Of a stretch of DNA of 64,000 nucleotides, positions 3,621 to 36,235 are shown one piece after another. Source of the DNA: a virus. The stretch's first letter is position 1, and each line of letters begins with the position of its first letter. The stretch covers positions 32,001-96,000 of the IMG/VR virus record IMGVR_UViG_3300032282_006300. One strand, given 5' to 3'. Under the pieces are notes generated by a model, which saw only the letters and a list, made by a program, of their open reading frames with translations, ran no database searches and was not told the origin of the DNA. The translations under genes and the position numbers were made by a program.

Positions 3621-3630
3621 GCGGATTATT

Positions 3631-3993: not shown

Positions 3994-4041
3994 ACAATCA
4001 TCTCCCCTGTTGAGTTATGCCAGCACTTGCTGACAAGAACT

Positions 4042-4951: not shown

Positions 4952-5056
4952 TGCCTGTCCGTTATGTCCGATTTGCCAGACACGGGGGGTCTCAGCGCCA
5001 GCCAGACCCGCGGGGAGCCATACCATACCCCTACCCCCGCCGCGCGCGTGGACCAT

Positions 5057-5275: not shown

Positions 5276-5370
5276 ACACAAGTACGCTCGCGTGACGCTC
5301 GCAACTTAATTCAACTTGTTCTCGCCGCCGACTCTTCTTGCACAGCGAACGTGTCCGTAGGCACAAAAAG

Positions 5371-5420
5371 ATGGTAGAAAGTGGTAGAAAGTGGTGCATG
5401 GTGGGGCTTTGTGGGACTTT
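5371..5420 (+). promoter_or_regulatory. MraZ-box-like array: five (A/G)TGG units at 10-bp period
   Basis: ATGGTAGAAA GTGGTAGAAA GTGGTGCATG GTGGGGCTTT GTGGGACTTT. Confidence 0.6.
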
Positions 5421-5575
5421 GCTATTAGATATCTGTTAGTGAACTATTGTCCCTATTCGCACGCTTGATTGTAAACGGTACGGGTAATCTTCCAAACACT
5501 ATCGTCCACATGAACGCTACTATGATGTCCATGAGGATATGATCAGGGTCAGATATGTTTTCTAGGAATTGTTCT

Positions 5576-6277: not shown

Positions 6278-7000
6278 TTAAAATTTCCATCCGACGTCTT
6301 GTCCAACGTAAGGGCTTGGACTTAAATGATGATTAATCCGGTTTTTAATACAACTAGAGGCATCTGGATCTAAACAACCATTTTTTTCTGCAAGCGTTCC
6401 ATCAAAAAGACCATTGTAAAGATTTCCACAACGAAGGCATTCATGTTCCCAACCATAATGTGTTTGTACGGGAATATGAAGCGAACTTTTCCAACCCTGT
6501 GATATTGTGCTTTTTAATTCAAAATGCGATCCTGTTTCGGGATCCTTTTCGGATCCGTTGGACCTTAAAGGAGATTGTTGCGCTTCTGCTCCATGTAACC
6601 ATGAACCTAAACCTTGTGTATGTAGATACATGGCTGGTCCAGAATTGTCGTGTTTTAAAATTCCACAATTTATGCCAACTAGGCCACCGTCACCATAAAT
6701 ACCATGTTTTCCGTATATAATCCTATTGTCGTTATGATTATATACGGAACCTTCTTTAAGAATATCTGATACATGTTTTTCGCAATGGTGACAATAATCT
6801 GTTCTGTCATCCATCAATGTGCTTAAATTTTCGCCTTTTAATGTTTCGAAACCTTTATGTATATGGCTCAAATATAAAGAAGGGTTATAAATATGGCGCA
6901 AAGCGGGCGCATTGTGAAACCTACCAATTGCTGGGTTATTATTAAGTTCAGAAACCCAACTTGGTGTATCTGAAGCGACTTTGTACCATAAATTACTCAT
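6278..7000 (-). CDS. NLWYK-leader Cys/His-rich protein
   Basis: Start moved to ATG 7000 (MSNLWYKVA, TAATG overlap); CHHC and CLRC motifs. Confidence 0.75.
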   Translation of the reverse strand: MSNLWYKVASDTPSWVSELNNNPAIGRFHNAPALRHIYNPSLYLSHIHKGFETLKGENLSTLMDDRTDYCHHCEKHVSDILKEGSVYNHNDNRIIYGKHGIYGDGGLVGINCGILKHDNSGPAMYLHTQGLGSWLHGAEAQQSPLRSNGSEKDPETGSHFELKSTISQGWKSSLHIPVQTHYGWEHECLRCGNLYNGLFDGTLAEKNGCLDPDASSCIKNRINHHLSPSPYVGQDVGWKF

Positions 7001-7692
7001 TATTGCTCCTCGCCTTTGAAAAGATATAAACCATTCTTTTGGCGCCATTCTGCTTCTGATCCTAGAAGGGTCTCTAGATCTCCTGCGGTACCATAGGCTT
7101 TTGCTTGTTCGTCAGAAATGTGACCCCCGGGCCAAAGGTCTTTATGGTGAACATAATCTCGGGTTTCCTCTAAAGTATCTTTAAAAGCATGTGGGGTGAA
7201 TATGTCATGTGCAATACAAGAATCAGGATGCCCCGTCGCTTTTACCATTTTTAATTTGTGTTCTTGGCATTCTTTTTGTGAATGTGGTCTGGCGGGCAAT
7301 ATGCTTCCCATAACACAAGTAGGACATTCAACGCCATTTATGTTATTTTTTCTTAATTCTTGAAAAGAAATGGGTTTTTCAATTGATCCACCACGTGAAT
7401 GTTTTAGAAATTTTTCTTTACATTCGTCTCTATTGCAAATAAAAAATTCATGACCAGACCCATTTTTTGCTACGTGGGCAATTTTATCTTGAGGGCTTCT
7501 CAAATGTGAAATATTTTCCCAATATTTATTTGCATATATTGTACGTTGTTTAGTATTTAATTCTCCAGCAACATCAAAAAATTTAAATTTACCTTCAATA
7601 GGAGCAGGTTCATTATCTTCGGGCACCCTTAACCAGTCTGGTTCTCTCATATGGTCACCATAATCAGCAACTTTGTACCATAGGTTACTCAT
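7000..7692 (-). CDS. NLWYK-leader Zn-finger paralog
   Basis: MSNLWYKVA; SFQELR..CPTC..RPHSQKEC..AYGTAGDLE. Confidence 0.8.
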   Translation of the reverse strand: MSNLWYKVADYGDHMREPDWLRVPEDNEPAPIEGKFKFFDVAGELNTKQRTIYANKYWENISHLRSPQDKIAHVAKNGSGHEFFICNRDECKEKFLKHSRGGSIEKPISFQELRKNNINGVECPTCVMGSILPARPHSQKECQEHKLKMVKATGHPDSCIAHDIFTPHAFKDTLEETRDYVHHKDLWPGGHISDEQAKAYGTAGDLETLLGSEAEWRQKNGLYLFKGEEQ

Positions 7693-17807: not shown

Positions 17808-18112
17808 TAAGACTCCAGACCAGAGGTATACATGTCCCAAGCCTTATGGCCCAGACTACGGATAACATTACCAAAGACACGACGATCTTCCCAATCAGGC
17901 CTACCGTCGTTTTGATACATCATTTTGACGTATTCAGTTAAATTGTCAGAACAAATGCCACACAACTGAATGTAGAAACCCGGCCCTCTTACAATGGCTT
18001 CCGCCGCGATTCCGTAAATGGAGGTTGCTACCGCAGAATCTAGGCGATATGGGTGCAAAACCATAGGCGTAGGCGAATGGAACTTAGATCCTTCGCATAG
18101 TTCGGAGGACAT
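17807..18112 (-). CDS. Hypothetical protein (possible Zn binding)
   Basis: C..H / CGIC; coupled to portal. Confidence 0.65.
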   Translation of the reverse strand: MSSELCEGSKFHSPTPMVLHPYRLDSAVATSIYGIAAEAIVRGPGFYIQLCGICSDNLTEYVKMMYQNDGRPDWEDRRVFGNVIRSLGHKAWDMYTSGLES

Positions 18113-18126
18113 TTCAATTTCCTGAC

Positions 18127-18759
18127 TTAGTTTTGACCCATGCGAGATGCTTTAACGGCCCTTAGCACCTCGGGTGAACGACCGCTAAATTCAATAGCAA
18201 GGTGTCGCAAATAATCTTCCTCACTCACCAAAACACCACTGGCGGTTTTGTAAGATTTTTTAGCAAGTTCTTCATCTTGTGGTTGAATATCGGGATTTTC
18301 TTCTTCCGCTTCTTCCTCGGATACATCTTCGGGATTAATAGGATCTTCTTGGCCCAAAGAGTCTTGTCCGTCCATTGCGGTGCCTTGGGTTGGTTCTGCG
18401 TTTGGCATACCGGGAATTTCTACGGGCACTCCATCAACTGTCTGCGGGAAAGCAGGATAAGAAGGTTGAAGGCGAACCATAAAGTTGATACCACAAAAAC
18501 CACATTCAACTGCCCCATCAGAACGGGCAGTTACCTGACCACTACCGCACATGGGGCAGTGAAAAATACGAAATTGGTCACCGCTATCGTGAGCCTGCAC
18601 CCTAATAGATGACATTGTTTTCCTTCCAGAACTCTTTGATGCCGAAACCATTCCGCCACGGGGACGCTCTAAACAAGCCGGACAAAGCATCTGATCGCCC
18701 GAACGACTGCGGGGTACGTACGGATCCATCTTGACTCCGCAATCATCACACAGCCTCAT
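18127..18759 (-). CDS. Zn-ribbon virion-region protein
   Basis: CDDC..CPAC, HCPMCGSGQV..ECGFC; GAGGAGG RBS. Confidence 0.75.
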   Translation of the reverse strand: MRLCDDCGVKMDPYVPRSRSGDQMLCPACLERPRGGMVSASKSSGRKTMSSIRVQAHDSGDQFRIFHCPMCGSGQVTARSDGAVECGFCGINFMVRLQPSYPAFPQTVDGVPVEIPGMPNAEPTQGTAMDGQDSLGQEDPINPEDVSEEEAEEENPDIQPQDEELAKKSYKTASGVLVSEEDYLRHLAIEFSGRSPEVLRAVKASRMGQN

Positions 18760-18772: not shown

Positions 18773-18807
18773 TACCTTTTTGGAGCCGTTTAAGGTGATG
18801 CGACAGG
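18773..18807 (-). promoter_or_regulatory. Putative late promoter CCTGT-N26-GGTA
   Basis: Recurring motif. Confidence 0.6.
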
Positions 18808-19866
18808 GGTTTTGGGCTCGTTCAGGGCTTTCATGTACCAAGACATGTTTTCTTGCAATCTGGGGTCTTCAGGAAACAAGTCTAATGCTTTTTGACCATA
18901 GGATAGGGCCAGATCATGCGCACCGCAATTATGGGCGCATAAAGCCGCAATATCATAGATGTAGAAATTCCAGGCTTTATCTTCTGTGATGTATGCGGGG
19001 TGTTTAAAATCCATAGAAACTGCTCTATTGGCCATGCCAAGACCACATTGCCAACGACCTTCGTTGTAATACAATTCTGCCAATTCTACAAAAGGTTCTC
19101 TGCGGTCAGAAGTTTCTGCACAAGCCTTTAGTAACCAAGTTTCAGCATTGTTGGGTTCGCATTTGGCGAGCATAATCATTGATTCAGAACGTTCGTATGA
19201 CCAACCACCAAGGGTTAGATAACGTTTAAGTTCTTCGGCACATTCTTCAAAACGTTGAACATAAAATAATTCTCTGCCGTAATAAAAAGACATACGGGAA
19301 TCATCCGGCAAATCTTTTACTGCTTGTTCAAGCATAGGTAGGTAATTGCGGGGTTTGGTGCGATCTGGCATATGTTCGCTAATTACCTTACTGCTGGCCC
19401 TAATGCACGGTGTAACTTCAAGCATTTCGTGAATAGGCCAAACCCAACGTGAGCCGTGGCGAGCATGGATGTTTACACGTTCCCAACTTTGCAATGGCGT
19501 TCCATCGGGCAATTTGCTATTGATAAATAAATAACCAAATTGTGTGGCTTCTGGATTTTCTTCAATAGTTTTTTCTAATTCTTCTCGCCATCCTTCATGC
19601 AAAATTTCATCCATATCGACACTGAAACAAAAATCAACATCGTCGGGGATAAGGTTGAGCGCATCATTGCGTGCCTGATCAAATTTAAAAGTTTTATATT
19701 TTTTCTTATGAACCGTTACGCCAGAGGCTTTGGCAATTTTGACGGTATCGTCTTCTGAGCCTGTATCAAGAATTAAACGAACGTCTGCATCTTTTGCTGA
19801 TTCAGCCCAACGGGCAACATGCTTGGCTTCGTTTTTGGCTATTGAATATACAGCGATCTTTGGCAT
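18790..19866 (-). CDS. GT2 glycosyltransferase with TPR repeats
   Basis: IAKNE, LDTGSEDDT, F..ARN.AL, DMDE, W..PIHE; TPR-like C-terminus. Confidence 0.9.
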   Translation of the reverse strand: MPKIAVYSIAKNEAKHVARWAESAKDADVRLILDTGSEDDTVKIAKASGVTVHKKKYKTFKFDQARNDALNLIPDDVDFCFSVDMDEILHEGWREELEKTIEENPEATQFGYLFINSKLPDGTPLQSWERVNIHARHGSRWVWPIHEMLEVTPCIRASSKVISEHMPDRTKPRNYLPMLEQAVKDLPDDSRMSFYYGRELFYVQRFEECAEELKRYLTLGGWSYERSESMIMLAKCEPNNAETWLLKACAETSDRREPFVELAELYYNEGRWQCGLGMANRAVSMDFKHPAYITEDKAWNFYIYDIAALCAHNCGAHDLALSYGQKALDLFPEDPRLQENMSWYMKALNEPKTPVASP

Positions 19867-23480: not shown

Positions 23481-26141
23481 TTAGTTTTCTTTGGTTACAA
23501 GAGAGATATTATCTTCAATTGCTTGACGGAAGTTGGCCAGACGGCGAGCACTCGTCAATTGTTGTGTTGCTGGCATTGAGACGTTGATCTCGGCATTAAT
23601 CACACCTTGACCAAAGGGCTCAACACCATTGTAGGGTGCAGGACCACCGGGACGAGCGGGATCAGTTCCTCCAGCGTTAGGACCATCGCGGCCCGGACCG
23701 TTAATGGGGGTTTCACCAACGGGGGAAGGTGTAGCGTCTGGAGCCATAGTGTCAAGGTCAGTTGACGTGGCACTCTCAACGCGAAGGTAAGCACCCTTCA
23801 TAATTCCACCTTGATCAGAAATGACCTTCAAGGAGAAATCTTTATGAAGTGCAATGCGCTGGCTAAACTCTGGATACTTGTTGGCTTGCTTGCGATGCTT
23901 GGCAACCCAAGCCTCTTGAGAACCAATGTTGTCAGAGATACCTGCGTACAGGCCAGCCTCAAACTCGGCAGAACCGGTGCGAACCAATGGCTTGCTTGCG
24001 TCCCATTTGCTTGCAAACTTGTAAGCCTTACGGAATTCAGGGTCCTGATTTGCATCTTCTGGAGTGAAAAGGCTAGAGGTGCGTTGCGCTTGTGCTTCGT
24101 CCAATTGCCTTTCTAGATCCTTGTTGTTTTCTGGTGCGTGTTTGGGAGATGGTGAATTTCCTCGCCAAATCTGGTCACTTTCATACCTTTGACTGTAAGG
24201 CAAAGTTTCATCATCAATATATTTGCCCGGACGATTAAGGTGCAATTTACTTACGTCGGTTGGAAGATCCGCGGCTGGACCTTTACGACGAAATGGGTTG
24301 CGACCAGCGGTACCACTCAAAAATGCCTGACCATTATCGCCACCGGCTGAGTAAGGCATGTCCTTGGGGTTACGCTCATCGCGTGCTTCGCCAATACCCT
24401 TTTGGTAACCTGCAACATAACCGGAGGAGAAAGCAAGACCACTTGATGCATCAGAGTAGGTAGGTGCATCACCATTGGCGCCATCAGCCATACCGGCCGC
24501 AAAACCAGCGGTGTACGAGCCACCCTGCTGAGGTTGTGGGGTAGTAGCAGGGGAATTTGCTACATCAGGTTGTGCAACTGCGTGAGGTGCATCGGAGTTA
24601 CCGTACATGTCAGCAGTTTTGCGAGAAGCCGTTGGCGGTGCTATGCCGTCGAGAAACGGTCCCCTGCAATCATCGCAACTCCACCTAGTTTGATTAGGAT
24701 TCCCATAAGAGATATAGACAGACGGTTTTGCCCCAGCGGCTCCACAATTGTCGCAAGTTGCTTCAGCAGCAGTCTTGCGGGAGGCGTTCTTGGGCGCGTT
24801 GACTTCAGCGGGAACCATACCCATGCCACCGCAATTACCGCAGGAGTTCTTGCCATCTTTAGTCTTTCCAGTGGCATCACAAGAACGGCAAGAAAAATCA
24901 GCGGGAGCAGCAATACGGCGAGAGCCGGTAAAACCAAATTCGTGTTGTCTACCCGGCAAATATCCGCGAAGGTGTTCGTTTATGTGGGCTTTGGCGTCCG
25001 CAACGCTTTCATGGTCGTGCTGATTTTGATCGTCGTGGGTATTTTCATTTCCCATAATTGTGAAAATACGATTGGGATCATCTCCACTTTGATAAATGTG
25101 ACCGAATGCAAAATTGCCATCTCTGTCTTTAGTCTCTGCGCTGTGTAAAAGTGGATCATCTCCACCATTTGGATCAATTCCACCCTCGTCATACCACTGA
25201 ATTTTAGCAGCAGTCTTGGTTGCGGCAACAGCCTTATCAATTGCTGCTGGTGCCGCCTGAGTAAAATCCTGATCATCAGCCTCTGGGTCCACAACCGGAC
25301 CGCCAAGCATCCAAGGGTAAGCAACTTCACCCGGAAGTGGGGTGGGCTTGGGCATGTTGTTGGGGTCAATGGTTTGAGCAATCTGATCCAAGGTGCTTGC
25401 GGCTTCACGCTGACGAAACTCATCCAAGTTGTAGGAGTGAGAAATGGCAACTGAAGTTACATTAGCAAAGTTAGCGGTTCCGCCACCGGGAACTGGGGGC
25501 CATTCTCCTTGGCCTTGTCCTCCACCAAGTTGCTCAATTTCAGCAAGCAATGGGTTGTTGTAAGTTCCCTCTTGCGCGACAGCCTGATCATTAATCGGGT
25601 GAACTGGGTCTTCAAAAGTGGGGAAGGTAGCCGCAGGGTATTCAGTAGCCTTGGGCATGTTATTGGGATCAATGAGTTGGTCAACCTGATCCAAGCCGGA
25701 TGCGGCTTCGCGGTTCAAGAATGCAACGTATTGCAAGAACGACTGCTCGGCGTCAGGTGCATAAACACCGTAAGTGCTGGCGGTACGACGAGCAATACCA
25801 CGGGCCTGCTCAACAAACTCTGGAACGTCATTTTTGACTTCGTCAGAGATGCGGTTGAACCACAATGATGCTTCAGCCATCACTGCTTGGTGATAGTTAT
25901 TGTCCTGAGTGTCGTCATCCATGCTCAACCAGTCGGTGGAGGCAGTGTGAAACTCGTGCACTCGCACGGGCGACAATGTCTGCTCTACAATCGCGCTGGT
26001 GAAGTCTAGACTTCGGTCTTCAGCGATGTTGCTGGCCTGACGAGCGTCAAGTGCTTCAAGTTCTGAAACCAAAGCGATCTGCTCAGCAAGAGATGATGCT
26101 TTTTGCAAGGATGCCATGATTTCGGCACGAGAGTTGTTCAC
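23481..26141 (-). CDS. Modular virion-region protein with REAAS duplication and SRKTA linkers
   Basis: REAAS.LDQ...IDPNNMPK twice; ATKTAA, GSRRIAA, ASRKTAA, ASRKTAD. Confidence 0.75.
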   Translation of the reverse strand: MNNSRAEIMASLQKASSLAEQIALVSELEALDARQASNIAEDRSLDFTSAIVEQTLSPVRVHEFHTASTDWLSMDDDTQDNNYHQAVMAEASLWFNRISDEVKNDVPEFVEQARGIARRTASTYGVYAPDAEQSFLQYVAFLNREAASGLDQVDQLIDPNNMPKATEYPAATFPTFEDPVHPINDQAVAQEGTYNNPLLAEIEQLGGGQGQGEWPPVPGGGTANFANVTSVAISHSYNLDEFRQREAASTLDQIAQTIDPNNMPKPTPLPGEVAYPWMLGGPVVDPEADDQDFTQAAPAAIDKAVAATKTAAKIQWYDEGGIDPNGGDDPLLHSAETKDRDGNFAFGHIYQSGDDPNRIFTIMGNENTHDDQNQHDHESVADAKAHINEHLRGYLPGRQHEFGFTGSRRIAAPADFSCRSCDATGKTKDGKNSCGNCGGMGMVPAEVNAPKNASRKTAAEATCDNCGAAGAKPSVYISYGNPNQTRWSCDDCRGPFLDGIAPPTASRKTADMYGNSDAPHAVAQPDVANSPATTPQPQQGGSYTAGFAAGMADGANGDAPTYSDASSGLAFSSGYVAGYQKGIGEARDERNPKDMPYSAGGDNGQAFLSGTAGRNPFRRKGPAADLPTDVSKLHLNRPGKYIDDETLPYSQRYESDQIWRGNSPSPKHAPENNKDLERQLDEAQAQRTSSLFTPEDANQDPEFRKAYKFASKWDASKPLVRTGSAEFEAGLYAGISDNIGSQEAWVAKHRKQANKYPEFSQRIALHKDFSLKVISDQGGIMKGAYLRVESATSTDLDTMAPDATPSPVGETPINGPGRDGPNAGGTDPARPGGPAPYNGVEPFGQGVINAEINVSMPATQQLTSARRLANFRQAIEDNISLVTKEN

Positions 26142-27643
26142 TGGTTCTCCTCTAGATCAAGCACTTGACGTGCTCTTTGGGCGATGGCTGAAGCCGTACG
26201 CCGATTGTTTTTGATTGCTGCTTTGTTAACTGATGGTGCGTCTGAAAATTTCAAACCACCCGCACCAGGAACTTTTTCTACGAAACCGCAAGTAGAACAT
26301 TTATAATCGTTTGCGCCTTTTTGCAATGTCATCATTGTACCATCACGAGGGCATTTTAACTCTTCGGCAGAAGGTTTGTTGGCGAGTGGATCATGTTGAC
26401 GGCCAAAAGGAATTACATTGCTGTTTCCACCCGGAATGCCTGTGCTAGGTAATTCAATTTGACTCATGTTGTAAGGATTACGTACAACTGTTCGATTTCG
26501 TTTTACGGGAGAAGAAGTTCCTGAATCTGTGTCCACGTAGGCTTCACCGCTTTGAGTTTCAAAAGAACGTGTACGGCGAATTTTTTCATTACCTTGGGTA
26601 ATTGGGTGGAGAATGTAATCTTGTGGTGTTAAATTTTGAACTTGAGTGGGGATCAAAGTCGCATTCTTGTTTGAGGAAGTGGCTTTGTTATTCGGAGTTT
26701 TACGAGCGCCGCGAAAATTGCGCATCATTGTATGATAGACATCGTCCGCAGCGTATCTTTTTTGCGAAGTCTCGTGCTCTTGGAACGGGCTTACGCGATG
26801 GTACTGTGTGCCTTTTGGACCTTCAACGGTAAAAACACCAGCCTTGTAACCGTAGGCTTTATTTCCAAAATCATTATCTGGAACGTGTTCGTGATAACTG
26901 ATATTGTGTTCAACGCCATCGGGACCAATAAATTGCATGGATTCCCCGTGTTGAAGCCCATGAATCTGTGTCCACGTAGGCAGTTTTGCCCACCAGGGAT
27001 TTTCATTTTCAGCAGTTTTGCGAGAAGCCTCGGTGTGCTCACCGCTTTGAACGTGGAGGTCTGGATCGTACCAATCGTCGTGACCATAGTGTTCGAAATA
27101 ATCTTTTCTGTTTGCTGAATACCACGGGGCGATAACTTCTTTTCCGCACGCAGAGCAACGTTCTCCCATTGGACCGGTAGAATCCCAAGATGCAATGGAA
27201 CCACATGATCCTTCGCATTCTTTAGTCTCTGGGCCGTGGCAATCGGTACAATAGATTTCTCCATCATGGGCGTAGCCTTTTAAGAATTTGTCAGACGCAG
27301 TTTTGCGAGAGCCGGTAAAACCCGGATCTTTTTCGCGGTCGTAGGGGCGGTCGGGAGTGCCTACTGCCGGGTCGTTTTTCGTGCAATTGTCGCACTTAGG
27401 AAAAGAACTATCTTCAGGCACGAGCATATTAGTCCCACAGTTAATACAACTACCGCGGACAGCAATTTTAGAATTAGCGAAAAAAATGTCATAAGCCGAC
27501 TTCTTTGCCATTTGCCGTCTAACCTTCTTCTGGTCGGTGGATGGATTACGCCTTACTTGGCTGTCAGAACCCCTCATAGGTTCTTGCTTCGGAGCGTCCT
27601 CATTACGAGAAACACCCTTTGGCTTTGCAGCCTCATACTGCAT
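26138..27643 (-). CDS. Modular Zn-finger protein with SRKTA linkers
   Basis: Start moved to MQYEAAK behind GGAGG; GSRKTAS, ASRKTAE, NRRTAS. Confidence 0.75.
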   Translation of the reverse strand: MQYEAAKPKGVSRNEDAPKQEPMRGSDSQVRRNPSTDQKKVRRQMAKKSAYDIFFANSKIAVRGSCINCGTNMLVPEDSSFPKCDNCTKNDPAVGTPDRPYDREKDPGFTGSRKTASDKFLKGYAHDGEIYCTDCHGPETKECEGSCGSIASWDSTGPMGERCSACGKEVIAPWYSANRKDYFEHYGHDDWYDPDLHVQSGEHTEASRKTAENENPWWAKLPTWTQIHGLQHGESMQFIGPDGVEHNISYHEHVPDNDFGNKAYGYKAGVFTVEGPKGTQYHRVSPFQEHETSQKRYAADDVYHTMMRNFRGARKTPNNKATSSNKNATLIPTQVQNLTPQDYILHPITQGNEKIRRTRSFETQSGEAYVDTDSGTSSPVKRNRTVVRNPYNMSQIELPSTGIPGGNSNVIPFGRQHDPLANKPSAEELKCPRDGTMMTLQKGANDYKCSTCGFVEKVPGAGGLKFSDAPSVNKAAIKNNRRTASAIAQRARQVLDLEENQ

Positions 27644-27667
27644 ATTAGGCCTCCACAATCAATCTCC

Positions 27668-29491: not shown

Positions 29492-29714
29492 TACCTCTCA
29501 GCAATTCAATTTCATCATCGGGAGAAAATGATTGTTTTTCGGTAACATCATTTGTTACAAAAGTAACGATAATCATGGATACGTGCCCTAAACTAGAATT
29601 GGCATTGTTAATATTGGTAACATAACTTCTACCAAAATCTGTTTTAATAACTTGACCTTTTTTAATATCGCCAGCAAGAATTATCAAAGGGGTTTGGCGT
29701 TCTTCAGACATCAC
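29481..29714 (-). CDS. Small SH3-like hypothetical protein
   Basis: AGDIKKGQVI pattern; packed ORF. Confidence 0.55.
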   Translation of the reverse strand: MMSEERQTPLIILAGDIKKGQVIKTDFGRSYVTNINNANSSLGHVSMIIVTFVTNDVTEKQSFSPDDEIELLRGIDE

Positions 29715-32700
29715 TGCGCCCCCTCTTTTTTATCAATACCAAAACGGGCATTTACAAGAGGTTGCCATAAACCTTTTTGATCTAAATATTTTTCGGCGGC
29801 ATTGCGGTAGTCAAAAACCCCGCGACCAGAAGGTTTGAATGCGCCCTTGCGAGATTCGTGGATAAATTCCCACAGTTGTCGGGCACGGCGGTTGCGGGAA
29901 GGTTCTGGCAACTTGAGAATGTTCTCAATTTCTACAGCCAATCCTTCAAAATAATACCATTCGCTTTGATTAAACTGGTGACCTTCTGGTGCCTCAATCG
30001 GTCGCACTGCCCATTCATCGTCAGTTAAATTATAAGCCGCGTAAGGTTTTAACACACTAATATCGTAAGAATGGGGATTGACGTAAAAAGTAGCAGACCA
30101 AGGGCCAACCTTAATTTTTCCACCAAATGGTTCACCGTTCCATTCCCATTCTGGAATGCCAATAAAAGGCACATTAAAATATGCTTCTTCAATGTTGCAG
30201 TGTTCGCGTAATTCTGCATTCATATGTGCAGAAATTTTTTCAGGAGACATTGTTGCAAATTGTGGATTGCTTTCAATCAAACCACCGTATTCAATTCCAA
30301 TCAAGGTATCAAGATCATCATTAAGATGGTATCCTTGAGATGCGCCGATTTCAGGATTTTTTACTGCGCTAGGATCTGCCCACCATTGGCTTACAGAAGA
30401 ACCGGCAATATAAACTTTACTCCAGTTTTTCCATTCTTTGTATTGGCTGTCCCATAATTCAGCAATACGGTTTATAATGGATTCACGAATTTCTGGGCGA
30501 ATCTTGTCATCTTCAAAAAGACGTGGATCTAGGCTACCAATAGTTGGCGCAAACAAGCGCTGGTTAGGTCGCCAAGAATCAAGGACTGCATTGCGTTCAT
30601 TTGCATTCTTAGAAGCATGTGGGTGAAGTGTTTTTACAAGGTGGTCATGCCACGCCCTGCCTTCACTTGTTTTACGATTTGAATGAATAGGTTTGGTGTC
30701 GGCTAAACCTAACATGTGTGCTTCGTGCGCTTTTGTAAGCATTGTAGTAGCGATACCGTGATATTGATATCCTGGATCTACTTCAATCCAATCAATCTCA
30801 CCTGGAGATAATTTAGAAAGATCGTCTCCATGTCGATCTGTCCATGATAATACTCCAATTTGTTCGTTATTATGATGGACAGTTATTCTATGAGAACCTC
30901 CCTTTTCCGGCGATTCTTTAAAGCGATATTCAATATTTTGTGGGTGAGGGGCATTACTCATATTTTGTGTATAAGTTTTATTTGCCTCATCTAAATTTTT
31001 TTGAAAATCTAAAAATGCATCTTCAGATTTACTTTTATAATACTCGTTTTCATGTTTATTTATTGCATTTTGAAGACGGGCATCTTCCTGTTTTTTAATA
31101 GTCAGGAAAGGATCTTCATCACTAGCAAAATGCTGGAGTAGGCTTAGGCTTGGAGGTAATGAAGACACCCACGCTTCACCGTCATCACTCAGGATATCTG
31201 AGTGCTGGGGTTTAGTAATTGCTCTACCAGAATAATGGGCATCGCGAGCCTTTTCCATCATTTTTGTAGCAATACCATGACGTTGATATTCATCATCCAC
31301 GTCAATGTTGCTGATTTCACCAGAAAAATAGCCAGAACTATATTTATCGTGGGTATCAGTCGCCCAACGAAGGTTGCCAACTTGTTTGCCATCATGGTTC
31401 GCAGTTACTTCATGCATGCTGCCAACCGTGCCAACAGCGCGATAAAACTTGTATTCTACGTTCATTGGGTGTGGTGCTTTTCGCATATTTTGTATATAAA
31501 TTTTGTATGCATTTGAAAATTCTTCATTAGAACCACGCTTTGCCGCATTAAGTTTAGCCTTTTCCTGCTTTTTAATCGTCAGAAAAGGATCTTCATCACT
31601 AGCAAAATGCTGGAGTAAGGAAGCCAAGGTGGGATTTTTTTCAACCATGCGGTCATACCATGCTTGACCTTGAGTGGTTTTGTGATCGGAATGTTCAATA
31701 CGTGTACTGGCATCACCAAATTCGTAAAATTCCCGAGCCTTTTTAATAAGATTAGTAGCAATGCCATGACGTTGGTATTCCGGGGTTACTTGGATGTGGC
31801 CAATTTCCCCAGGAAAAAGACTATGACGTGTTTTTTTTTCATCATTAGCCCAGCGAACATGACCAACTTCTTCGCCATTATGGTAAGCAGTTACTTGATG
31901 CATTTGGTTTCCACCATGTTCAGAACGTTTATTAAATTCGTATTCTACGTTCATTGGGTGTGGGGCTTTTCGCATATTTTGTATATAAATTTTGTATGCA
32001 TTTGAAAATTCTTCATCAGAGCCACGCCTTGCCGAATTAAGTTTGGCATCCTCTTGCTTCTTAATTTTCAAAAAAGAATCTTCATAACTGGCAAAATATT
32101 GTAGCAAGGAAGCCATCCTTGGGTCTTTTTCAACCATGCGCTGATGCCATGCACGGCCTTGATCGGTTTTGTCATCGGAATGTTCAGCGCGAGTACTGGC
32201 TTCACCGGATTCGTAAAATTCCCGAGCCTTCTTGACAAGATTAGTCGCAATGCCATGACGTTCGTAAACAGGAATTACGCCGACGTATCCAATTTCTCCA
32301 GGAAAAAGTTTACGATGTGTTTGTATTTGATCATTGGCCCAACGAATATGACCAACTTGTTCGCCATTATGGTGAGCAGTTACTGCATGCAATTGTTTTC
32401 CACCATGTTCAGAATATGAATGAAATTTGTATTCTACATTTTGTGGGTCGGGGGCATTTTGCATTTGGGTACTAAAACGACTTAAGGTAGCAAAACGTTT
32501 TCTTTTTTCACGGCGCACAATTTCGGCTCGGCCACTATTTTCGTGCTCGTCTTCCGCATCACCAATTTTATCGTTTGCAATTTTCCTGGCTTCATCTAAA
32601 GAATCGTTGGCCTTTTTCATAGCAATATCGTATTTTTTTGCGTGGGGATCAAAAACATTTTCTGCTGCAGCATAAGCAGCGTCCCGCTTGTCCCTGTGGG

Positions 32701-34036
32701 GTTGCAGTTCCGCCAATAGTGCCTCTTGGCGTGCATTGTAGGCTTGTTTATGTGGCTCAAGTTCGGCGTTGGCTTCATCCATTGCTTTGTTGTGCTTAAC
32801 TAAATAATCATCAAGGTTTTTATCAGCATTTGATTTTGCTTGATCAAGAATTTCTTTGTGCGGGCGAATTGCTTCCATTGCATCCGCAACGGCTTTTTTG
32901 TGTTCTGGACTATCTATAGAAAATGTTTGGTCAGCATGTCTTAGGGAACGACTAAATTTTTCTGAATGGGGGCCAAACGCAGCACCGGCGTTTCTTATTT
33001 TTGATTTGTGTTTATTTTCTTCATCAATACGTTCATTTTTGAGTTCTTCTGTTTTGATTGTGTGTGGTTTATATTTTTCAAAAGCCTCGTTTATTAGACC
33101 CATAATGCGATCTTCGTGCGGAGCAAATTCTTTATTAGCCTTTTCTATAGAATCCCACCATACCCCACGGTGAACACTTAATTTTTGGTCAATTTCGAAT
33201 TTGATTGGCCTTTGTTTTTCAAAAACAGCATCGTATTCGGCCCTAGCAGCATTTCTAGCCGATTTAAGGGGGCGCTCAGCCTCTTCAATAACCGCATCAT
33301 GCTTCTTATTGGCCCTATCCAACTCAAACTCGGCATTGGCCTTAGCCCGCAAGAAAGGATCTACACCTTCAGCAAAGAACTGGAACAGGTCGTTATCCGC
33401 AGCCTGGTAGAAGAAATCAACTACGCTGGCTTGAGCCTGGTTACGGCGCTTTACGGCACGAACAGAGCCATCGGAGCGTGCACTTACTTCTTGATTTTTT
33501 CCGCCTTTAAATGATATGTGATGCCAAGAAGGTTTCTCTCCCCAAAAACCAAACTCCCGAAAATCATCTGCATCAGTAAAAAGATCTTTGGCTTTTACAG
33601 TTGCACGAATTACGGGCCAATCATTCTTCGGATCTTCTTGCTTTCCGTGCTGGCGTGCATATTCTTTGCTAATAGAAACCCAATCTCCAGGTTTAATACC
33701 GTGATGTGCTTTTTCTGCGGGTAGCGATCGGTAAATGCGAATTTTTGTTTCAGGGTTATTGCGAATACGGCGCAAAATGTTGTGGGCTTCCCGGTTAGAC
33801 GGCTCACTCATGTCTGAGTAGTAATGTGGGTGGGTATAAACATTCGCTGGCACACCTTGGGTTAAGTCCCAGGCGGGGATGCCCCCTTCAGGATCTCCGG
33901 GCCGGTGTGCCCAACCATAAGAATTGTCGGCAGTTGCCTTAACCCGCAAAAAAGGATCTACACCTTCAGCAAAGAACTGGAACAAAGATGCGTGCATAAA
34001 CTCGGTCTGGCTAACCGTTTCATTCATCTGTTCCAT
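29711..34036 (-). CDS. Polyvalent protein: ART-like domain, coiled coil, four GNAT domains, Pol-beta-type nucleotidyltransferase
   Basis: IYR..GDWVS.S.EYA..H..EFG; four I..I.V...Y.RHGIAT motifs; IAGSS...DDLDTLI. Confidence 0.8.
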   Translation of the reverse strand: MEQMNETVSQTEFMHASLFQFFAEGVDPFLRVKATADNSYGWAHRPGDPEGGIPAWDLTQGVPANVYTHPHYYSDMSEPSNREAHNILRRIRNNPETKIRIYRSLPAEKAHHGIKPGDWVSISKEYARQHGKQEDPKNDWPVIRATVKAKDLFTDADDFREFGFWGEKPSWHHISFKGGKNQEVSARSDGSVRAVKRRNQAQASVVDFFYQAADNDLFQFFAEGVDPFLRAKANAEFELDRANKKHDAVIEEAERPLKSARNAARAEYDAVFEKQRPIKFEIDQKLSVHRGVWWDSIEKANKEFAPHEDRIMGLINEAFEKYKPHTIKTEELKNERIDEENKHKSKIRNAGAAFGPHSEKFSRSLRHADQTFSIDSPEHKKAVADAMEAIRPHKEILDQAKSNADKNLDDYLVKHNKAMDEANAELEPHKQAYNARQEALLAELQPHRDKRDAAYAAAENVFDPHAKKYDIAMKKANDSLDEARKIANDKIGDAEDEHENSGRAEIVRREKRKRFATLSRFSTQMQNAPDPQNVEYKFHSYSEHGGKQLHAVTAHHNGEQVGHIRWANDQIQTHRKLFPGEIGYVGVIPVYERHGIATNLVKKAREFYESGEASTRAEHSDDKTDQGRAWHQRMVEKDPRMASLLQYFASYEDSFLKIKKQEDAKLNSARRGSDEEFSNAYKIYIQNMRKAPHPMNVEYEFNKRSEHGGNQMHQVTAYHNGEEVGHVRWANDEKKTRHSLFPGEIGHIQVTPEYQRHGIATNLIKKAREFYEFGDASTRIEHSDHKTTQGQAWYDRMVEKNPTLASLLQHFASDEDPFLTIKKQEKAKLNAAKRGSNEEFSNAYKIYIQNMRKAPHPMNVEYKFYRAVGTVGSMHEVTANHDGKQVGNLRWATDTHDKYSSGYFSGEISNIDVDDEYQRHGIATKMMEKARDAHYSGRAITKPQHSDILSDDGEAWVSSLPPSLSLLQHFASDEDPFLTIKKQEDARLQNAINKHENEYYKSKSEDAFLDFQKNLDEANKTYTQNMSNAPHPQNIEYRFKESPEKGGSHRITVHHNNEQIGVLSWTDRHGDDLSKLSPGEIDWIEVDPGYQYHGIATTMLTKAHEAHMLGLADTKPIHSNRKTSEGRAWHDHLVKTLHPHASKNANERNAVLDSWRPNQRLFAPTIGSLDPRLFEDDKIRPEIRESIINRIAELWDSQYKEWKNWSKVYIAGSSVSQWWADPSAVKNPEIGASQGYHLNDDLDTLIGIEYGGLIESNPQFATMSPEKISAHMNAELREHCNIEEAYFNVPFIGIPEWEWNGEPFGGKIKVGPWSATFYVNPHSYDISVLKPYAAYNLTDDEWAVRPIEAPEGHQFNQSEWYYFEGLAVEIENILKLPEPSRNRRARQLWEFIHESRKGAFKPSGRGVFDYRNAAEKYLDQKGLWQPLVNARFGIDKKEGAQ
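30640..32460 (-). repeat. Four intragenic tandem GNAT repeats (~480-bp period)
   Basis: Near-identical DNA e.g. 31452-31526 vs 31941-32015 and 31107-31140 vs 31584-31617. Confidence 0.85.
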
Positions 34037-34237: not shown

Positions 34238-36235
34238 CTAATTTCGCCATCCGCGAGATGGGTTTCTGTTCTTACCTTTACCATCTTTACGATTAGAAGC
34301 AAATCCAGACATTGAAGACATTTTTTGGTTTTCGCTTAGATCGTTGCGCATTCTTCCAAACGGGTCAATACCTCCTTGGAGAGCCGCTGTTGGTCTAAAA
34401 TTAGCCATGTCTGCATGAAGAAAGTTGTTCACCTGTTCACCAATCAACACATGGATGCATTCTGTCATACAGTCTGCAATGTCTTTAGATTGAACTGGAC
34501 CGGCAGATGGGTGGTCAACTCGACCGTTTACCATTTGAAGGAATCGTAATTCTAACTCTGCCCGTTCATTGTAGGGGGCGTGAACCAATCCCAAGTTAAT
34601 CGCGGCCTTAGAGTTTTCTTTTACCTGCCAATCGTATTGGCGCGTTGCAGTTTTTTCAAAAACATTGATGCGTTTGGGAAGATTGCCATTACGAACCATT
34701 CTTTGAAGTTTTTGAATAGAAGATGTTGAGTTGTATTGGTCAAAAGTAAATTCTTCTGGATAAAATTTGGAAATAATATTGTTCCACAAAAAATCATCTA
34801 CATATTCGTAATCAATAATACCATCTTCAAAAGATGCGGGATCAAAATGTCCCAAAACGTCAAACACACAATGTTGACGACCTTCTTCGTCAATTTCTGC
34901 GTGTGCAATGGCGTAACCAAATTTGTCGTTAACCTTTGAAGGGTCGGCATGGCCCTTGTAATTGTAAATCAATAAACCGCTTGTTTGTTGAACAATTTCT
35001 GGAGGTCCGTATTTTTCGGGACGTTCATTCCACGGGCGGAAAATTTGAGTAACTTTATCTGGGTTCAAATAAGCGTCAATGGTTGCCGCAAATTTAGATT
35101 CACGTTCAACTGCAAAAGTTTCAGGATTGGCTAATTTAAGCCTTTCCATCTGCTCGTCGAATGCTTGAATGGCTCCACGCAGAGGCTTAAACTTTGGCGG
35201 TGGATCATTTTTGTAAATGTAATCTGGTGCATCTCCGTCAAACAAATAAGGAAACACATCTATTTCGTGGGCAATTTCCCAATCAACGTAAATGTCCCAA
35301 GAAGCCAATTGAACCATCATAATTTCTGGATATACAGGTTTTCCTCTTAAATCAATTTCTAAAGAGTTTTTGTAATTTTCGTAGAATTGACCCATCATCT
35401 GCCAAGGGCTGGATGGTTCAATAATGAACCCGTATTTACCGAATTGGTCAAGGGCGGGGGTAGAAGCCTGATAAACCTCTTCAGCAGACCTGTTAGCGCC
35501 AGAGTTGACAACGTGTGCCATCTCGTCAAAAGCCATCATAAAAGCCGTAGGACCACGACCGGCCATCAAAGTTGATTCTTTTGGCAAAATTTCAAAAGTG
35601 GCTATATCAAGATCTGTTTTGATTCCCTGAGTTTTAAGTTTTTTCATTCTTAATTCATCGTTGGGAGCATAGATACTTACCTTTTCAGCAAGCAAATTTG
35701 AAACATAAGGCCCAAAACAAGTAGAGCCGGTAATAACATTTGCTAGGTCCCGCCACACCGTTGCTTTTGCCTGATCACGCTTACCGGCGAAAACTAGACC
35801 CACCAGTTTCTTGTCTCGGTCAACACCAAAATGTGCTTGTGGGTCAGCATTTTGCATGTAATTCCATAAAACATATGCCATTGCTAGAGCCGCAATATGT
35901 CCTTTACCGGCACGACGGCCCATGACCAACAATACTTCACGAAACCACGGATAGCCCTGTTCCCGCAGGTAATTCATCCGTTTTACAATTCCGGGGACAA
36001 TACCGTTGTATCCCGTTTGCTTAAAGTTTGTTTCCCATTCGTTGATGACTTTGTAATCATATTCCGTCAAAAGGTCTGTACGAAGAAATATGATTTTTAA
36101 TAGCGTTGCTTGACGTGGATATAAATTGGGTCGATTTAGATAATCCGGACTAATTACAAAAGTAATTGGGTCGGGAACTTTTACGCCCGTAATCTTAATA
36201 TGGGCGTTTAATGCTTCGTTATCTAAAATACTCAA
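34238..36235 (-). CDS. terL: Terminase large subunit
   Basis: LYPRQ, Walker A GRRAGKG, Walker B AFDE, nuclease HADPS..D, TFDQYNS, KDIAD. Confidence 0.9.
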   Translation of the reverse strand: MSILDNEALNAHIKITGVKVPDPITFVISPDYLNRPNLYPRQATLLKIIFLRTDLLTEYDYKVINEWETNFKQTGYNGIVPGIVKRMNYLREQGYPWFREVLLVMGRRAGKGHIAALAMAYVLWNYMQNADPQAHFGVDRDKKLVGLVFAGKRDQAKATVWRDLANVITGSTCFGPYVSNLLAEKVSIYAPNDELRMKKLKTQGIKTDLDIATFEILPKESTLMAGRGPTAFMMAFDEMAHVVNSGANRSAEEVYQASTPALDQFGKYGFIIEPSSPWQMMGQFYENYKNSLEIDLRGKPVYPEIMMVQLASWDIYVDWEIAHEIDVFPYLFDGDAPDYIYKNDPPPKFKPLRGAIQAFDEQMERLKLANPETFAVERESKFAATIDAYLNPDKVTQIFRPWNERPEKYGPPEIVQQTSGLLIYNYKGHADPSKVNDKFGYAIAHAEIDEEGRQHCVFDVLGHFDPASFEDGIIDYEYVDDFLWNNIISKFYPEEFTFDQYNSTSSIQKLQRMVRNGNLPKRINVFEKTATRQYDWQVKENSKAAINLGLVHAPYNERAELELRFLQMVNGRVDHPSAGPVQSKDIADCMTECIHVLIGEQVNNFLHADMANFRPTAALQGGIDPFGRMRNDLSENQKMSSMSGFASNRKDGKGKNRNPSRGWRN

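What the first reader, a model, noticed from the sequence alone, without database searches (positions are those of the whole stretch)
29711..34036. 1441-aa polyvalent protein with its own module delimiter
Seen: [SD]L[FL]Q[FYH]FA..[VE]D[PS]FL recurs five times (DNA near 33970, 33370, 32090, 31600, 31120; 33951-33984 equals 33354-33387). It opens an ART-like domain, a coiled coil plus GNAT, and three further GNAT modules; a nucleotidyltransferase ends the protein. Known: phage polyvalent proteins combine such enzymes and are proposed to be delivered with the DNA. Inference: the delimiter is an internal targeting or cleavage signal, aromatic and ending in Ala like NLWYKVA, releasing several host-modifying enzymes.
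Basis: partly seen in the sequence, partly recalled or inferred. Interest (0 to 1): 0.75.

Follow-up and report, generated by a model that had tools for sequence, protein, structure and literature searches.

The report
Phage effector polyprotein with repeated delimiter
A giant phage protein strings several host-modifying enzymes together, separated by one short conserved peptide that looks like a protease cutting mark, so the phage may load its head with a chain of enzymes and cut it into pieces.

Summary
ORF 29711-34036(-) encodes 1441 aa, and the motif [SD]L[FL]Q[FYH]FA..[VE]D[PS]FL occurs five times at the stated places. Nowhere else in the window's six frames does its core occur.

The window lies in a complete 124-kb WhiB-carrying actinophage distantly related to Mycobacterium Bixzunavirus phages. 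The gene sits just after the large terminase, a slot also filled by a differently composed polyprotein in a GC-rich relative.

The motif core (S-L-Φ-Q-[HYF]-F-A) has these properties:
- It is conserved as peptide, not as DNA.
- It lies in low-confidence linkers in two AlphaFold models.
- It marks homology breakpoints between shuffled relatives.
- It bookends relatives at their very N and C termini.
- It recurs six times in a second 1948-aa polyprotein of the same phage, which begins with the head-maturation protease domain. In metagenomic relatives that protease and this protein's modules are fused.

Best reading (about 0.5): a processing site cut in the prohead by the phage's own protease. 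Cleavage itself is not shown.

The core matches the Prp F|A site of L27 and phage 80α. Prp was not found in the phage, and no match above cut-off in 301 Actinomycetota genomes.

GNATs are confirmed. The ART-like and nucleotidyltransferase assignments remain tentative.

The parts
29711..34036 (-). ORF of the 1441-aa polyvalent protein (P0001)
   Evidence: An identical 1438-aa protein is on record in the protein collection (P0002).
33947..33988 (-). Delimiter copy 1 (aa 17-30, SLFQFFAEGVDPFL), after a 16-aa leader
   Evidence: pLDDT below 50 in the model of aa 1-240; the alignment did not cover this flank.
33512..33904 (-). ART-like domain, also called 'ParB C-terminal domain' (aa ~45-175)
   Evidence: phrog_2579 E 2.1e-34. 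pLDDT above 90. R103 and S123 invariant, E161 near-invariant. PDB fold hits are ARTs but weak. 15 viral fold hits at E<=0.001, one named a large-polyvalent-protein-associated domain.
33350..33391 (-). Delimiter copy 2 (aa 216-229, DLFQFFAEGVDPFL)
   Evidence: pLDDT 51-57.
32537..33349 (-).
   Evidence: PH at aa 306, 324, 356, 392, 428, 446, 464; spacings 18, 32, 36, 36, 18, 18.
32117..32524 (-). GNAT module 1 (aa ~505-640)
   Evidence: PF13527, aa 520-608.
32069..32110 (-). Delimiter copy 3 (aa 643-656, SLLQYFASYEDSFL)
31622..32068 (-). GNAT module 2 (aa ~657-805)
   Evidence: PF00583 best stretch aa 697-776.
31580..31621 (-). Delimiter copy 4 (aa 806-819, SLLQHFASDEDPFL)
   Evidence: pLDDT below 50 in the model of aa 790-990 (model residues 15-20 and 22-27).
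31145..31579 (-). GNAT module 3 (aa ~820-964)
   Evidence: phrog_1249 aa 836-933. PF13880 aa 908-943. Core pLDDT 78-97.
31103..31144 (-). Delimiter copy 5 (aa 965-978, SLLQHFASDEDPFL)
   Evidence: pLDDT below 50 (model residues 174-183). The following DPFL starts the next helix. Here the alignment covers the motif.
30617..31102 (-). GNAT module 4 (aa ~979-1140)
   Evidence: Fourth GNAT stretch counted by Pfam. Sequence read directly.
30602..30610 (-). K-N-A (aa 1143-1145) between GNAT4 and the last domain. Possible degenerate copy of a second boundary motif, [KR]TA.
   Evidence: At the same place relatives have SKTA, ERTA or HTA (by eye).
29714..30589 (-). C-terminal nucleotidyltransferase-like domain (aa ~1150-1441)
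   Evidence: Invariant G126/S127 and D155/D157 of alignment A5. Atlas neighbours carry PF01909 in 52-65% of members, scores 0.84-0.87. No Pfam or PDB sequence hit.
34238..36235 (-). Large terminase directly upstream (context)
   Evidence: phrog_2 E 1e-7. 54% identical to the ORF that precedes polyprotein P0024 in the syntenic locus L129.

Best explanation
The ORF is a hypervariable cargo polyprotein of a Bixzunavirus-like actinophage. It consists of an ART-like domain, a helical repeat region plus GNAT, three more GNATs and a nucleotidyltransferase-like domain.

The delimiter has two parts. The first is a flexible linker core, S-L-[LF]-Q-[HYF]-F-A. The second, D-P-F-L, caps the first helix of the next module.

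The core is most likely a protease recognition and cleavage site. The polyprotein would enter the prohead and be cut there by the phage's own head-maturation protease, releasing separate enzymes that leave with the DNA.

Shown: the motif, its linker position, its peptide-level conservation, its bookend positions, its presence in the protease-led polyprotein, and the fusion of the protease with these modules in relatives.

Inferred: packaging, cleavage, which protease acts, and the scissile bond.
For: (1) Two models put the motif core in their lowest-confidence segments, between well-folded cores. In the second model the C-terminal copy is covered by the alignment.

(2) The 11 copies in the phage differ at synonymous sites, for example Leu as TTG/CTG/TTA/CTA and Gln as CAG/CAA.

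(3) The same phage has a 1948-aa protein (G000 12837-18683, outside the window) whose first ~240 aa match phrog_18299 'head maturation protease' at E 6.8e-22. That domain also matches ORFs annotated as head maturation protease in Dickeya and Erwinia jumbo phages. H85 and S143 are invariant in 31 relatives. The protein carries six motif copies, the last 13 aa from its end.

(4) P0006 is 82.6% identical to that protease over aa 1-235 and 57.5% identical to P0001 aa 35-649 over its aa 693-1347. P0011 shows the same kind of fusion.

(5) Of 931 internal BLAST alignment endpoints among 13 relatives, 245 lie within 15 aa of a motif (26%). Random positions give 6.6%, maximum 8.7% in 500 draws.

(6) Of 81 distinct instances, 5 start at Met1 (MLEYFTA) and 10 stand 2-9 residues before the stop. 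The conserved positions run from -5 to +1 around the invariant Phe. This is the shape of a complete minimal protease site.

(7) Synteny: the gene follows TerL here and in L129, where a differently composed 2380-aa polyprotein bookended by the motif fills the slot.

(8) Iyer et al. 2017 (PMC5512222, passages read) already propose that polyvalent proteins are processed into units by peptidases.
Against: - There is no direct evidence of cleavage or of virion location.
- The motif was not found in the capsid, scaffold-like or portal proteins of this phage. If the head protease cuts it, these polyproteins are its only substrates with this site.
- Among 43 loci with related proteases, only one (L085, 80% identical protease) has the motif in the protease-led ORF.
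- In the 21 of 80 ART-domain loci that I examined, the giant ORFs lack the motif, apart from one loose match in L016.
- Among 70 further GNAT-module proteins of 500 aa or more, only 4 carry the strict pattern. The motif is therefore a sublineage feature.
- Low pLDDT is not proof of disorder.
- The GNAT modules end after helix alpha-4 in the model, so a role of the motif as a missing last strand is not excluded.
- The relatives used are related to each other, so the breakpoint and enrichment counts are not independent events.
Confidence: 0.5

Rival explanations
1. The motif is a sorting or anchoring tag rather than a cut site. Each module would carry an aromatic peptide that docks onto the prohead core (protease, scaffold or capsid interior) or guides exit through the tail, and the polyprotein would stay intact or be cut elsewhere.
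For: Bookend copies at the extreme termini would yield only 3-5-residue products if cut. Head-internal proteins of relatives end in acidic-L-F-[LFI] tails (14 ORFs). This phage's scaffold-like ORF ends in ADADLFLN and Catera gp94 ends in ASLFI. Four small paralogs carry an N-terminal M[SA]NLWYKVA tag.
Against: A tag does not need to sit between every pair of modules or to coincide with homology breakpoints. The conserved span, with a small residue right after the invariant Phe, looks like a scissile-bond signature. The two roles are not exclusive. In T4 the capsid targeting sequence is also cut off (recalled, not from a call).
Confidence: 0.2
2. The motif mimics the N-terminal extension of ribosomal protein L27 and is cut between Phe and Ala by a Prp-type cysteine protease of the host, as for the capsid and scaffold proteins of Staphylococcus phage 80α.
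For: PMC9405229 (passages and Table 1 read) gives the L27 motif as MLxx(D/N)LQ(F/L)F'A(S/H)KK, 80α capsid as ...KLNLQHF'ASNN and 80α scaffold as ...FNLQFF'ADQS. Copies 4 and 5 here read LLQHF-ASDE and copies 1 and 2 read LFQFF-AEGV. PMC5744158 (passages) notes the same motif on non-homologous proteins of other phages.
Against: PF04327 (Peptidase_Prp) gives no match in the complete phage genome. A recalled active-site pattern finds nothing either. The phage carries WhiB at 74.7 bits. Its portal, protease and capsid proteins resemble those of Mycobacterium, Gordonia and Rhodococcus phages. In a sample of 301 genomes of the phylum of a Sinomonas genome, 0 had a match above the cut-off and 1 had a sub-threshold match with an internal stop. 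[quoted passage not shown]
Confidence: 0.08
3. The motif is only a recombination or gene-fusion scar. A conserved junction sequence would let modules be swapped, and ORFs be split or fused, with no function for the peptide itself.
For: Homology breakpoints cluster at the motif. Copies 1 and 2 share 34 identical bases. Relatives start (Met at the -4 position) and stop at the motif. Module content differs greatly between syntenic phages.
Against: Synonymous positions vary freely between copies while the peptide is kept. The peptide is kept between a 44%-GC and 64-68%-GC phages, whose DNA cannot be alike. A scar would not keep a defined residue pattern over 81 distinct instances.
Confidence: 0.1
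4. The motif is a structural element of the modules, for example a strand that completes the truncated GNAT fold in cis or by swapping between neighbouring modules.
For: The modelled GNAT core stops after helix alpha-4 and lacks the usual last strands. The motif follows each of GNAT modules 1 to 3 directly.
Against: The motif also stands before and after the ART-like domain. It follows NUDIX and other non-GNAT modules, and a DUF7178 domain in the phage's second polyprotein. It stands at Met1 of several relatives. Both models give it pLDDT below 50 to 57.
Confidence: 0.07

Closest known systems
Polyvalent proteins of phages and conjugative elements (Iyer, Burroughs, Anand, de Souza, Aravind 2017; PMC5512222, abstract and passages read)
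   Same: Many unrelated effector domains (ART, GNAT and Pol-beta nucleotidyltransferase are all named there) in one phage protein next to virion genes. The paper proposes delivery with the DNA and proposes release of units by peptidases.
   Different: There the processing is ascribed to embedded zincin-like MPTase domains, or to assemblin-like peptidases at the C terminus. Here no MPTase is found. The candidate protease is N-terminal on a second polyprotein. A defined, repeated boundary peptide is present. I found no mention of such a delimiter in the passages read and did not read the whole paper or its supplements.
Prp cleavage motif of long L27 and of phage 80α capsid and scaffold proteins (PMC9405229 and PMC5744158, passages read)
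   Same: The core L-Q-[HF]-F-A-[SE] is nearly letter for letter the published (D/N)LQ(F/L)F'A(S/H). It is also used on non-homologous phage proteins.
   Different: The known sites are single and N-terminal (9-14 residues removed) and cut by a host cysteine protease of Firmicutes and allies. Here the sites are mostly internal and repeated. The phage is an actinophage. Prp was not found in the phage or in 301 sampled Actinomycetota genomes.
Head-internal and ejection proteins processed by the prohead protease: T4 internal proteins with a capsid targeting sequence (recalled), and SPN3US/phiKZ-type ejection proteins (PMC10052503, PMC7411985, PMC5694885; only the search-listing abstracts seen)
   Same: Proteins packed in the head with the DNA are cut by a phage prohead protease at a short consensus. 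The protease domain here matches ORFs annotated as head maturation protease or prohead core protease in jumbo phages.
   Different: The known motifs end in Glu ((L/I)xE, (S/A/G)xE; recalled) and remove propeptides from separate proteins. Here one peptide separates up to six enzyme modules in one chain. Its conserved part is aromatic. Acidic residues follow at +4/+5 in only 26-41% of instances.
Bixzunavirus (Mycobacterium cluster C) protease-led giant proteins, e.g. Catera gp94
   Same: Same protease domain (45% identity) at the N terminus of a protein of more than 1300 aa, just upstream of a gp95 homolog and the major head protein. Portal and capsid are homologous.
   Different: By eye, Catera gp94 has one QHFAEG stretch and several [KR]TA stretches. 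It does not have the repeated delimiter and has no GNAT or ART cargo in that protein.
Polyproteins of RNA viruses
   Same: One chain, several enzymes, and a repeated protease site between them. Iyer et al. draw the same analogy.
   Different: This is a dsDNA phage. The modules are effectors rather than replication proteins, and processing would take place inside the prohead.

Membership tests
Polyvalent protein (Iyer et al. 2017) | Several unrelated effector or catalytic domains in one polypeptide of a phage or conjugative element | tested here: met
   ART-like domain, 4 GNATs and an NTase-like domain in 1441 aa. The record is a complete virus genome with direct terminal repeats.
Polyvalent protein (Iyer et al. 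2017) | Late or virion gene context | tested here: met
   Directly downstream of TerL. Same slot in syntenic L129. Modules fused to the head-maturation protease in P0006 and P0011.
Polyvalent protein (Iyer et al. 2017) | Embedded peptidase (zincin-like MPTase in about 36% of members) | tested here: not met
   PF18818 gives no match in the phage genome. This feature is not obligatory for the class.
Prp substrate (long L27, 80α CP/SP) | Motif (D/N)LQ(F/L)F'A(S/H) | tested here: met
   LLQHF-AS, LLQYF-AS and LFQFF-AE, against the published motif and Table 1.
Prp substrate (long L27, 80α CP/SP) | A single site within the first ~15 residues | tested here: not met
   Only copy 1 (aa 17-23) is near the N terminus. 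Four copies are internal.
Prp substrate (long L27, 80α CP/SP) | A Prp (PF04327) protease in the host or phage | tested here: not met
   0 of 1 phage genome. 0 of 301 sampled genomes of the Sinomonas phylum above the cut-off, with 1 sub-threshold match. The host itself is unknown.
Substrate of a T4 gp21 / phiKZ gp175-type prohead protease | Phage encodes such a protease | tested here: met
   phrog_18299 E 6.8e-22. Matches ORFs annotated as head maturation protease or prohead core protease. Invariant H85 and S143. Pfam S78 gives no match.
Substrate of a T4 gp21 / phiKZ gp175-type prohead protease | Cleavage consensus ending in Glu (recalled) | tested here: inconclusive
   SDE, SYE or FAE follow the Phe in all five copies here. 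Acidic residues at +4/+5 occur in only 26-41% of the 81 instances.
Substrate of a T4 gp21 / phiKZ gp175-type prohead protease | Cleaved forms present in the virion | not testable with these tools
   Needs mass spectrometry of particles.
GNAT acetyltransferase | Pfam GNAT profile above cut-off and the acetyl-CoA loop | tested here: met
   PF00583 87.8 bits (cut-off 20.7), 4 stretches. ERHGIA, QRHGIA, QRHGIA and QYHGIA read in the sequence. The modelled core lacks the last strands.
ADP-ribosyltransferase (R-S-E type) | ART fold with an Arg / Ser / Glu triad | tested here: inconclusive
   R103 and S123 invariant, E161 near-invariant in 49 sequences. ARTs lead the PDB fold hits, but the best is E 0.015, TM about 0.2-0.3, and none reaches 0.001. 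PHROG names the domain 'ParB C-terminal domain'.
Pol-beta superfamily nucleotidyltransferase | hG[GS] ... DxD signature (recalled) and a profile match | tested here: inconclusive
   G126/S127 and D155/D157 are invariant in 5 sequences. Atlas neighbours carry PF01909, at scores below 0.9. No Pfam hit at E<=1. No PDB hit apart from a chance-level one at E 0.75.

The most novel reading that the evidence does not exclude
A lineage of large actinophages runs an RNA-virus-like polyprotein strategy inside the capsid. A portable 7-8-residue cut-and-sort peptide, convergent on the Prp F|A site of Firmicutes, defines exchangeable effector cassettes. These can be shuffled, fused to the head protease, or split into separate genes at the motif. 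Each cassette is released in the prohead and injected as an independent anti-host enzyme.
Probability: 0.35. Interest if true: 0.8.

Novelty: new variant of a known kind. Interest (0 to 1): 0.62.

Why it matters
Polyvalent proteins are thought to be a main route by which phages deliver counter-defence enzymes with their DNA. How one chain becomes several working enzymes is mostly conjecture.

A defined boundary peptide, shared with a protease-led polyprotein of the same phage, gives a concrete and testable processing rule. It also gives a way to predict mature products from sequence and a natural set of swap points that would explain the extreme mosaicism of these genes.

The near identity with the Prp site, in a host phylum where Prp was not found, raises a further question: either the specificity is convergent or an unrecognised protease with that specificity exists.

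A portable cleavage and packaging tag could also be used to load foreign proteins into phage heads.

Tried and rejected
- **Complex prediction.** I submitted the protease domain (alignment A6) with a 45-aa delimiter segment (alignment A7). The result was no verdict (score 0.01, mark 0.32) and counts neither way.
- **Close DNA relatives among cultured phages.** None by megablast. By tblastn, 181 records match only single domains and none covers 80% of the protein.
- **Loci searches with single proteins.** The C-terminal domain and P0024 found nothing in viral contigs.
- **Protease gene of the GC-rich syntenic phage.** I tried to reach it through L129, but the record is not held.
- **Relatives of a virus record.** These are not drawn. 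I went through genome-contig loci instead.
- **Pfam on the protease domain.** It gave only a chance-level hit and the PDB sequence search gave nothing. The assignment rests on PHROGs and on annotated phage records.
- **Alignments for the GNAT model.** A first alignment (A3) mis-placed the window's own overlapping rows. The rebuilt A4 still has two poor rows, so the model rests on about 11 informative rows.
- **Readings rejected on residue pattern alone, without a test.** These were a beta-clamp-binding or PIP-box motif, a 2A-type skipping peptide, a Nup98-type HF|S autoproteolysis site and a 3C-like LQ| site.
- **'AYDIFFAN' near the start of the 506-aa ORF 26138-27658.** It shares only FFA with the delimiter and I do not count it.
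- **Literature.** No paper in the library holds LLQHFA, LQHFAS, LFQFFA, MLEYFTA or NLWYKVA; LQFFAS occurs only in two Prp papers. A search for proteolysis data on Bxz1-type phages found nothing relevant in its listing. Supplements could not be read and might hold virion proteomics or domain tables that bear on this.

Full report
**1. The observation**

ORF 29711..34036 on the minus strand is open for 1441 codons from an ATG. The two 34-mers 33951-33984 and 33354-33387 are identical. The core L[FLIVM]Q[FYHW]F[AGS] occurs five times in all six frames of the window, always in this ORF.

Pfam finds GNAT in four stretches (PF00583, E 7.9e-25). PHROGs matches aa 32-168 to phrog_2579, named 'ParB C-terminal domain' (E 2.1e-34).

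**2. The phage**

The window is bases 32001-96000 of a 123,830-bp virus record with direct terminal repeats, rated complete.

- It has no close DNA relative among 50,697 phage records.
- Its portal (window 15714-17840) is 41-44% identical to those of Rhodococcus phage E3 and Mycobacterium Bixzunavirus phages.
- Its major capsid protein (G000 9373-10443) is 59.7% identical to Catera gp96.
- It carries a WhiB gene at 74.7 bits, a family that among the 14 control genomes rang only in Corynebacterium.

I therefore take the host to be an actinobacterium. This is an inference.

The ORF lies directly downstream of the large terminase (phrog_2). In the 68%-GC metagenomic locus L129 the upstream genes are collinear with this phage (TerL 54% identical). 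The same slot there holds a differently composed 2380-aa polyprotein, P0024.

**3. Relatives and the spread of the motif**

A word-indexed search returned 24 other proteins of 865-2424 aa. They share some modules with this one in different orders and mix them with NUDIX, ParB, cupin and other modules.

The same short peptide stands between their modules, as LLQHFA, LFQHFA, ILQHFA and, in GC-rich relatives, xLEYFTA and xxDYFG.

- A loose pattern occurs 86 times in 26 proteins, against 9.0 +/- 2.9 in 200 shuffles.
- Over all 170 proteins held, there are 81 distinct instances. The consensus is [SGA]-[LMIV]-[LF]-[QDE]-[HYF]-F-[AGT], followed by small and then often acidic residues.
- Five instances begin at Met1, where the Met takes the -4 hydrophobic position. 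Ten lie 2-9 residues before the stop.
- Of 931 internal BLAST endpoints between 13 relatives, 245 (26%) fall within 15 aa of a motif. Random positions give 6.6%, maximum 8.7% in 500 draws. The proteins are kin, so these are not independent events.

The motif is a sublineage trait:

- In the 21 of 80 loci with the ART-like domain that I examined, the giant ORFs lack it, apart from one loose match.
- Of 43 loci with a related protease, only L085 has it.
- Of 70 further GNAT-module proteins of 500 aa or more from the exhaustive search, 4 have the strict pattern. A fifth, P0145, has it only at its two ends.
- In the motif-less relatives a different short peptide, [KR]TA[AGS], is enriched: 43 occurrences against 6.5 +/- 2.5 in 19 proteins. 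By eye it stands at module boundaries.

**4. Peptide or DNA?**

The eleven copies in this phage use different synonymous codons for the conserved Leu, Gln and Ala. The peptide is also kept between a 44%-GC phage and 64-68%-GC phages. Selection therefore acts on the peptide. The 34-base identity of copies 1 and 2 is best read as a recent duplication or conversion.

**5. Structure**

*Model of aa 1-240* (49-row alignment). Residues about 45-175 have pLDDT above 90. Copy 1 is below 50 and copy 2 is at 51-57. The alignment did not cover these flanks.

*Model of aa 790-990* (14 rows, about 11 informative). The GNAT core has pLDDT 78-97. Both SLLQHFA copies sit in the only segments below 50 (model residues 15-20, 22-27 and 174-183). 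The C-terminal copy is covered by the alignment. The following D-P-F-L begins the first helix of the next module.

The delimiter is therefore a linker core plus a helix cap, not an integral GNAT element. One caveat remains: the modelled GNAT stops after helix alpha-4, so a strand role is not excluded.

Fifteen viral models match at E<=0.001, one of them named a large-polyvalent-protein-associated domain. R103 and S123 are invariant and E161 is nearly so. 'ART-like' is plausible but not established.

*The last domain.* It keeps GS and DxD invariant. It has Atlas neighbours with PF01909 at lead-level scores. It has no Pfam or PDB sequence match.

**6. A second polyprotein and the protease**

A genome-wide motif scan found a 1948-aa ORF at G000 12837-18683, outside the window, with copies at aa 632, 744, 919, 1095, 1537 and 1936.

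- Its first ~240 aa match phrog_18299 'head maturation protease' (E 6.8e-22) and its end matches DUF7178.
- The domain is 45% identical to the start of Catera gp94, which lies just upstream of gp95 and the major head protein. The arrangement here is equivalent.
- It matches ORFs annotated as head maturation protease or prohead core protease in Dickeya and Erwinia jumbo phages.
- H85 and S143 are invariant in 31 relatives, together with a Cys/His cluster.

The metagenomic protein P0006 joins this protease (82.6% identity over aa 1-235) to the ART-like, repeat and GNAT modules of the present protein (57.5% over 669 columns). P0011 is a similar fusion. This is the strongest link between the finding and head assembly.

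The phage has no Prp, no MPTase-PolyVal and no Pfam S78 match.

**7. Comparison with known systems**

*Prp.* The core is almost the published Prp site. PMC9405229 gives MLxx(D/N)LQ(F/L)F'A(S/H)KK for L27...KLNLQHF'ASNN for the 80α capsid protein and ...FNLQFF'ADQS for its scaffold (passages and Table 1). PMC5744158 states that Prp cuts between F and A. But Prp is reported for Firmicutes and allies. It is absent from this phage. In 301 genomes sampled from the phylum of a Sinomonas genome, none had a match above the cut-off and one had a sub-threshold match with a stop inside. Host Prp is therefore an unlikely agent, and the likeness would be convergent.

*Polyvalent proteins.* Iyer et al. 2017 (PMC5512222, passages) already propose that polyvalent proteins are delivered with the DNA and are processed by embedded peptidases. 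They describe assemblin-like peptidases at C termini. In the passages I read they do not describe a repeated boundary peptide.

*Print search.* No paper in the searchable library contains the motif strings.

**8. Mechanism and its uncertainty**

I propose that the chain is taken into the prohead and cut at the delimiters by the phage protease. The expected products are a 16-22-aa leader, the ART-like domain, the repeat region with GNAT1, GNAT2, GNAT3, and GNAT4 with the last domain. GNAT4 and the last domain may in turn be separated at K-N-A 1143-1145.

The scissile bond is open. Three candidates fit the data:
- F|A, as in Prp. This fits the span of conservation and the minimal bookend sites.
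- A|S, the herpesvirus assemblin rule (recalled).
- After the Glu of SDE, SYE or FAE, the T4/phiKZ rule (recalled).

Points against the proposal:
- There are no proteomic data.
- The motif was not found in the capsid, scaffold-like and portal proteins.
- Its phyletic spread is narrow.

The docking-tag reading is a serious rival and may be true as well. Head-internal proteins of relatives end in acidic-LF[LFI] tails, and four small paralogs carry an N-terminal M[SA]NLWYKVA tag.

**9. Verdict**

It is a new variant (a defined, portable module delimiter) of known kinds: polyvalent proteins and prohead-protease-processed head cargo.

Noticed in passing
window 5576-6235, 6278-7000, 7000-7692, 7689-8414 (minus strand): Four tandem ORFs of 219-241 aa each begin with M[SA]NLWYKVA followed by D, E or S. 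They are Cys- and His-rich and match no PHROG family. The shared 9-residue N-terminal tag looks like a targeting or propeptide signal.
   Followed up: partly
G000 12837-18683 (minus strand; outside the window; locus L002:12840-18683): A 1948-aa polyprotein: head-maturation protease domain, two paralogous modules that each start right after a delimiter, further modules, and DUF7178 at the end. It carries six delimiter copies, the last 13 aa from the stop.
   Followed up: yes
window 26138-27658 (minus strand); also P0027 and GC-rich relatives (L005, L008, L009, P0015-P0025): A second short peptide, [KR]TA[AGS], recurs. It is seen 3-4 times as RKTA/RRTA in the 506-aa Cys-rich ORF and right after the protease domain of the 1948-aa protein. 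In 19 giant relatives it occurs 43 times against 6.5 expected. It may be the boundary or cleavage motif of the motif-less relatives.
   Followed up: partly
window 32537-33349 (aa ~296-475 of the protein): An 18-residue repeat with an invariant Pro-His pair, seven copies at spacings of 18, 32 or 36 residues, in an Ala/Lys/Glu-rich region. A Pro every 18 residues argues for a helical repeat array rather than one long coiled coil.
   Followed up: partly
loci L087-L120 and G000 11071-11949: Scaffold-like and other head-internal ORFs of related phages end in an acidic stretch plus L-F-[LFI] (14 of 1478 ORFs scanned). This phage's 292-aa ORF ends in ADADLFLN and Catera gp94 ends in ASLFI. This may be a shared C-terminal capsid-binding tail.
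   Followed up: partly
proteins P0045, P0046, P0051, P0055, P0061, P0062, P0073, P0103, P0122 and others: Another group of multi-GNAT giant proteins begins with MSxWGLWGL or MSDLWGLHTA. Several of them end with NHPxH[IVT]P[AG]PW[DEA][NSQ]. This is a different pair of terminal tags in another lineage.
   Followed up: no
G000 2893-3105 (minus strand; locus L128): A WhiB-family gene (74.7 bits) in the phage, pointing to an actinobacterial host despite the 40-46% GC of most of the window.
   Followed up: yes
P0004, P0006, P0007, P0008, P0009, P0011 (GNAT modules): In relatives, some GNAT modules carry a CxxC...CxxC zinc-ribbon insertion (Pfam Zn_ribbon_8, weak) between strands. It is absent from the four modules here.
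   Followed up: no
window 18790-19866 (minus strand): A glycosyltransferase (phrog_13126 E 3.4e-100; GT2 plus TPR) sits among ORFs with no family match, between the terminase and the portal.
   Followed up: no
window 1-6000: GC is 50-53% in the first 6 kb against 39-46% in most of the rest of the window. I did not examine the cause.
   Followed up: no
aa 1-16 of the protein (window 33989-34036) and the N termini of P0003-P0009, P0012: The leader M-E-x-M-N-x-x-x-x-Q-x-x-F-M-H-A is conserved even in relatives where a different module, without the delimiter, follows it (P0008, P0012).
   Followed up: no
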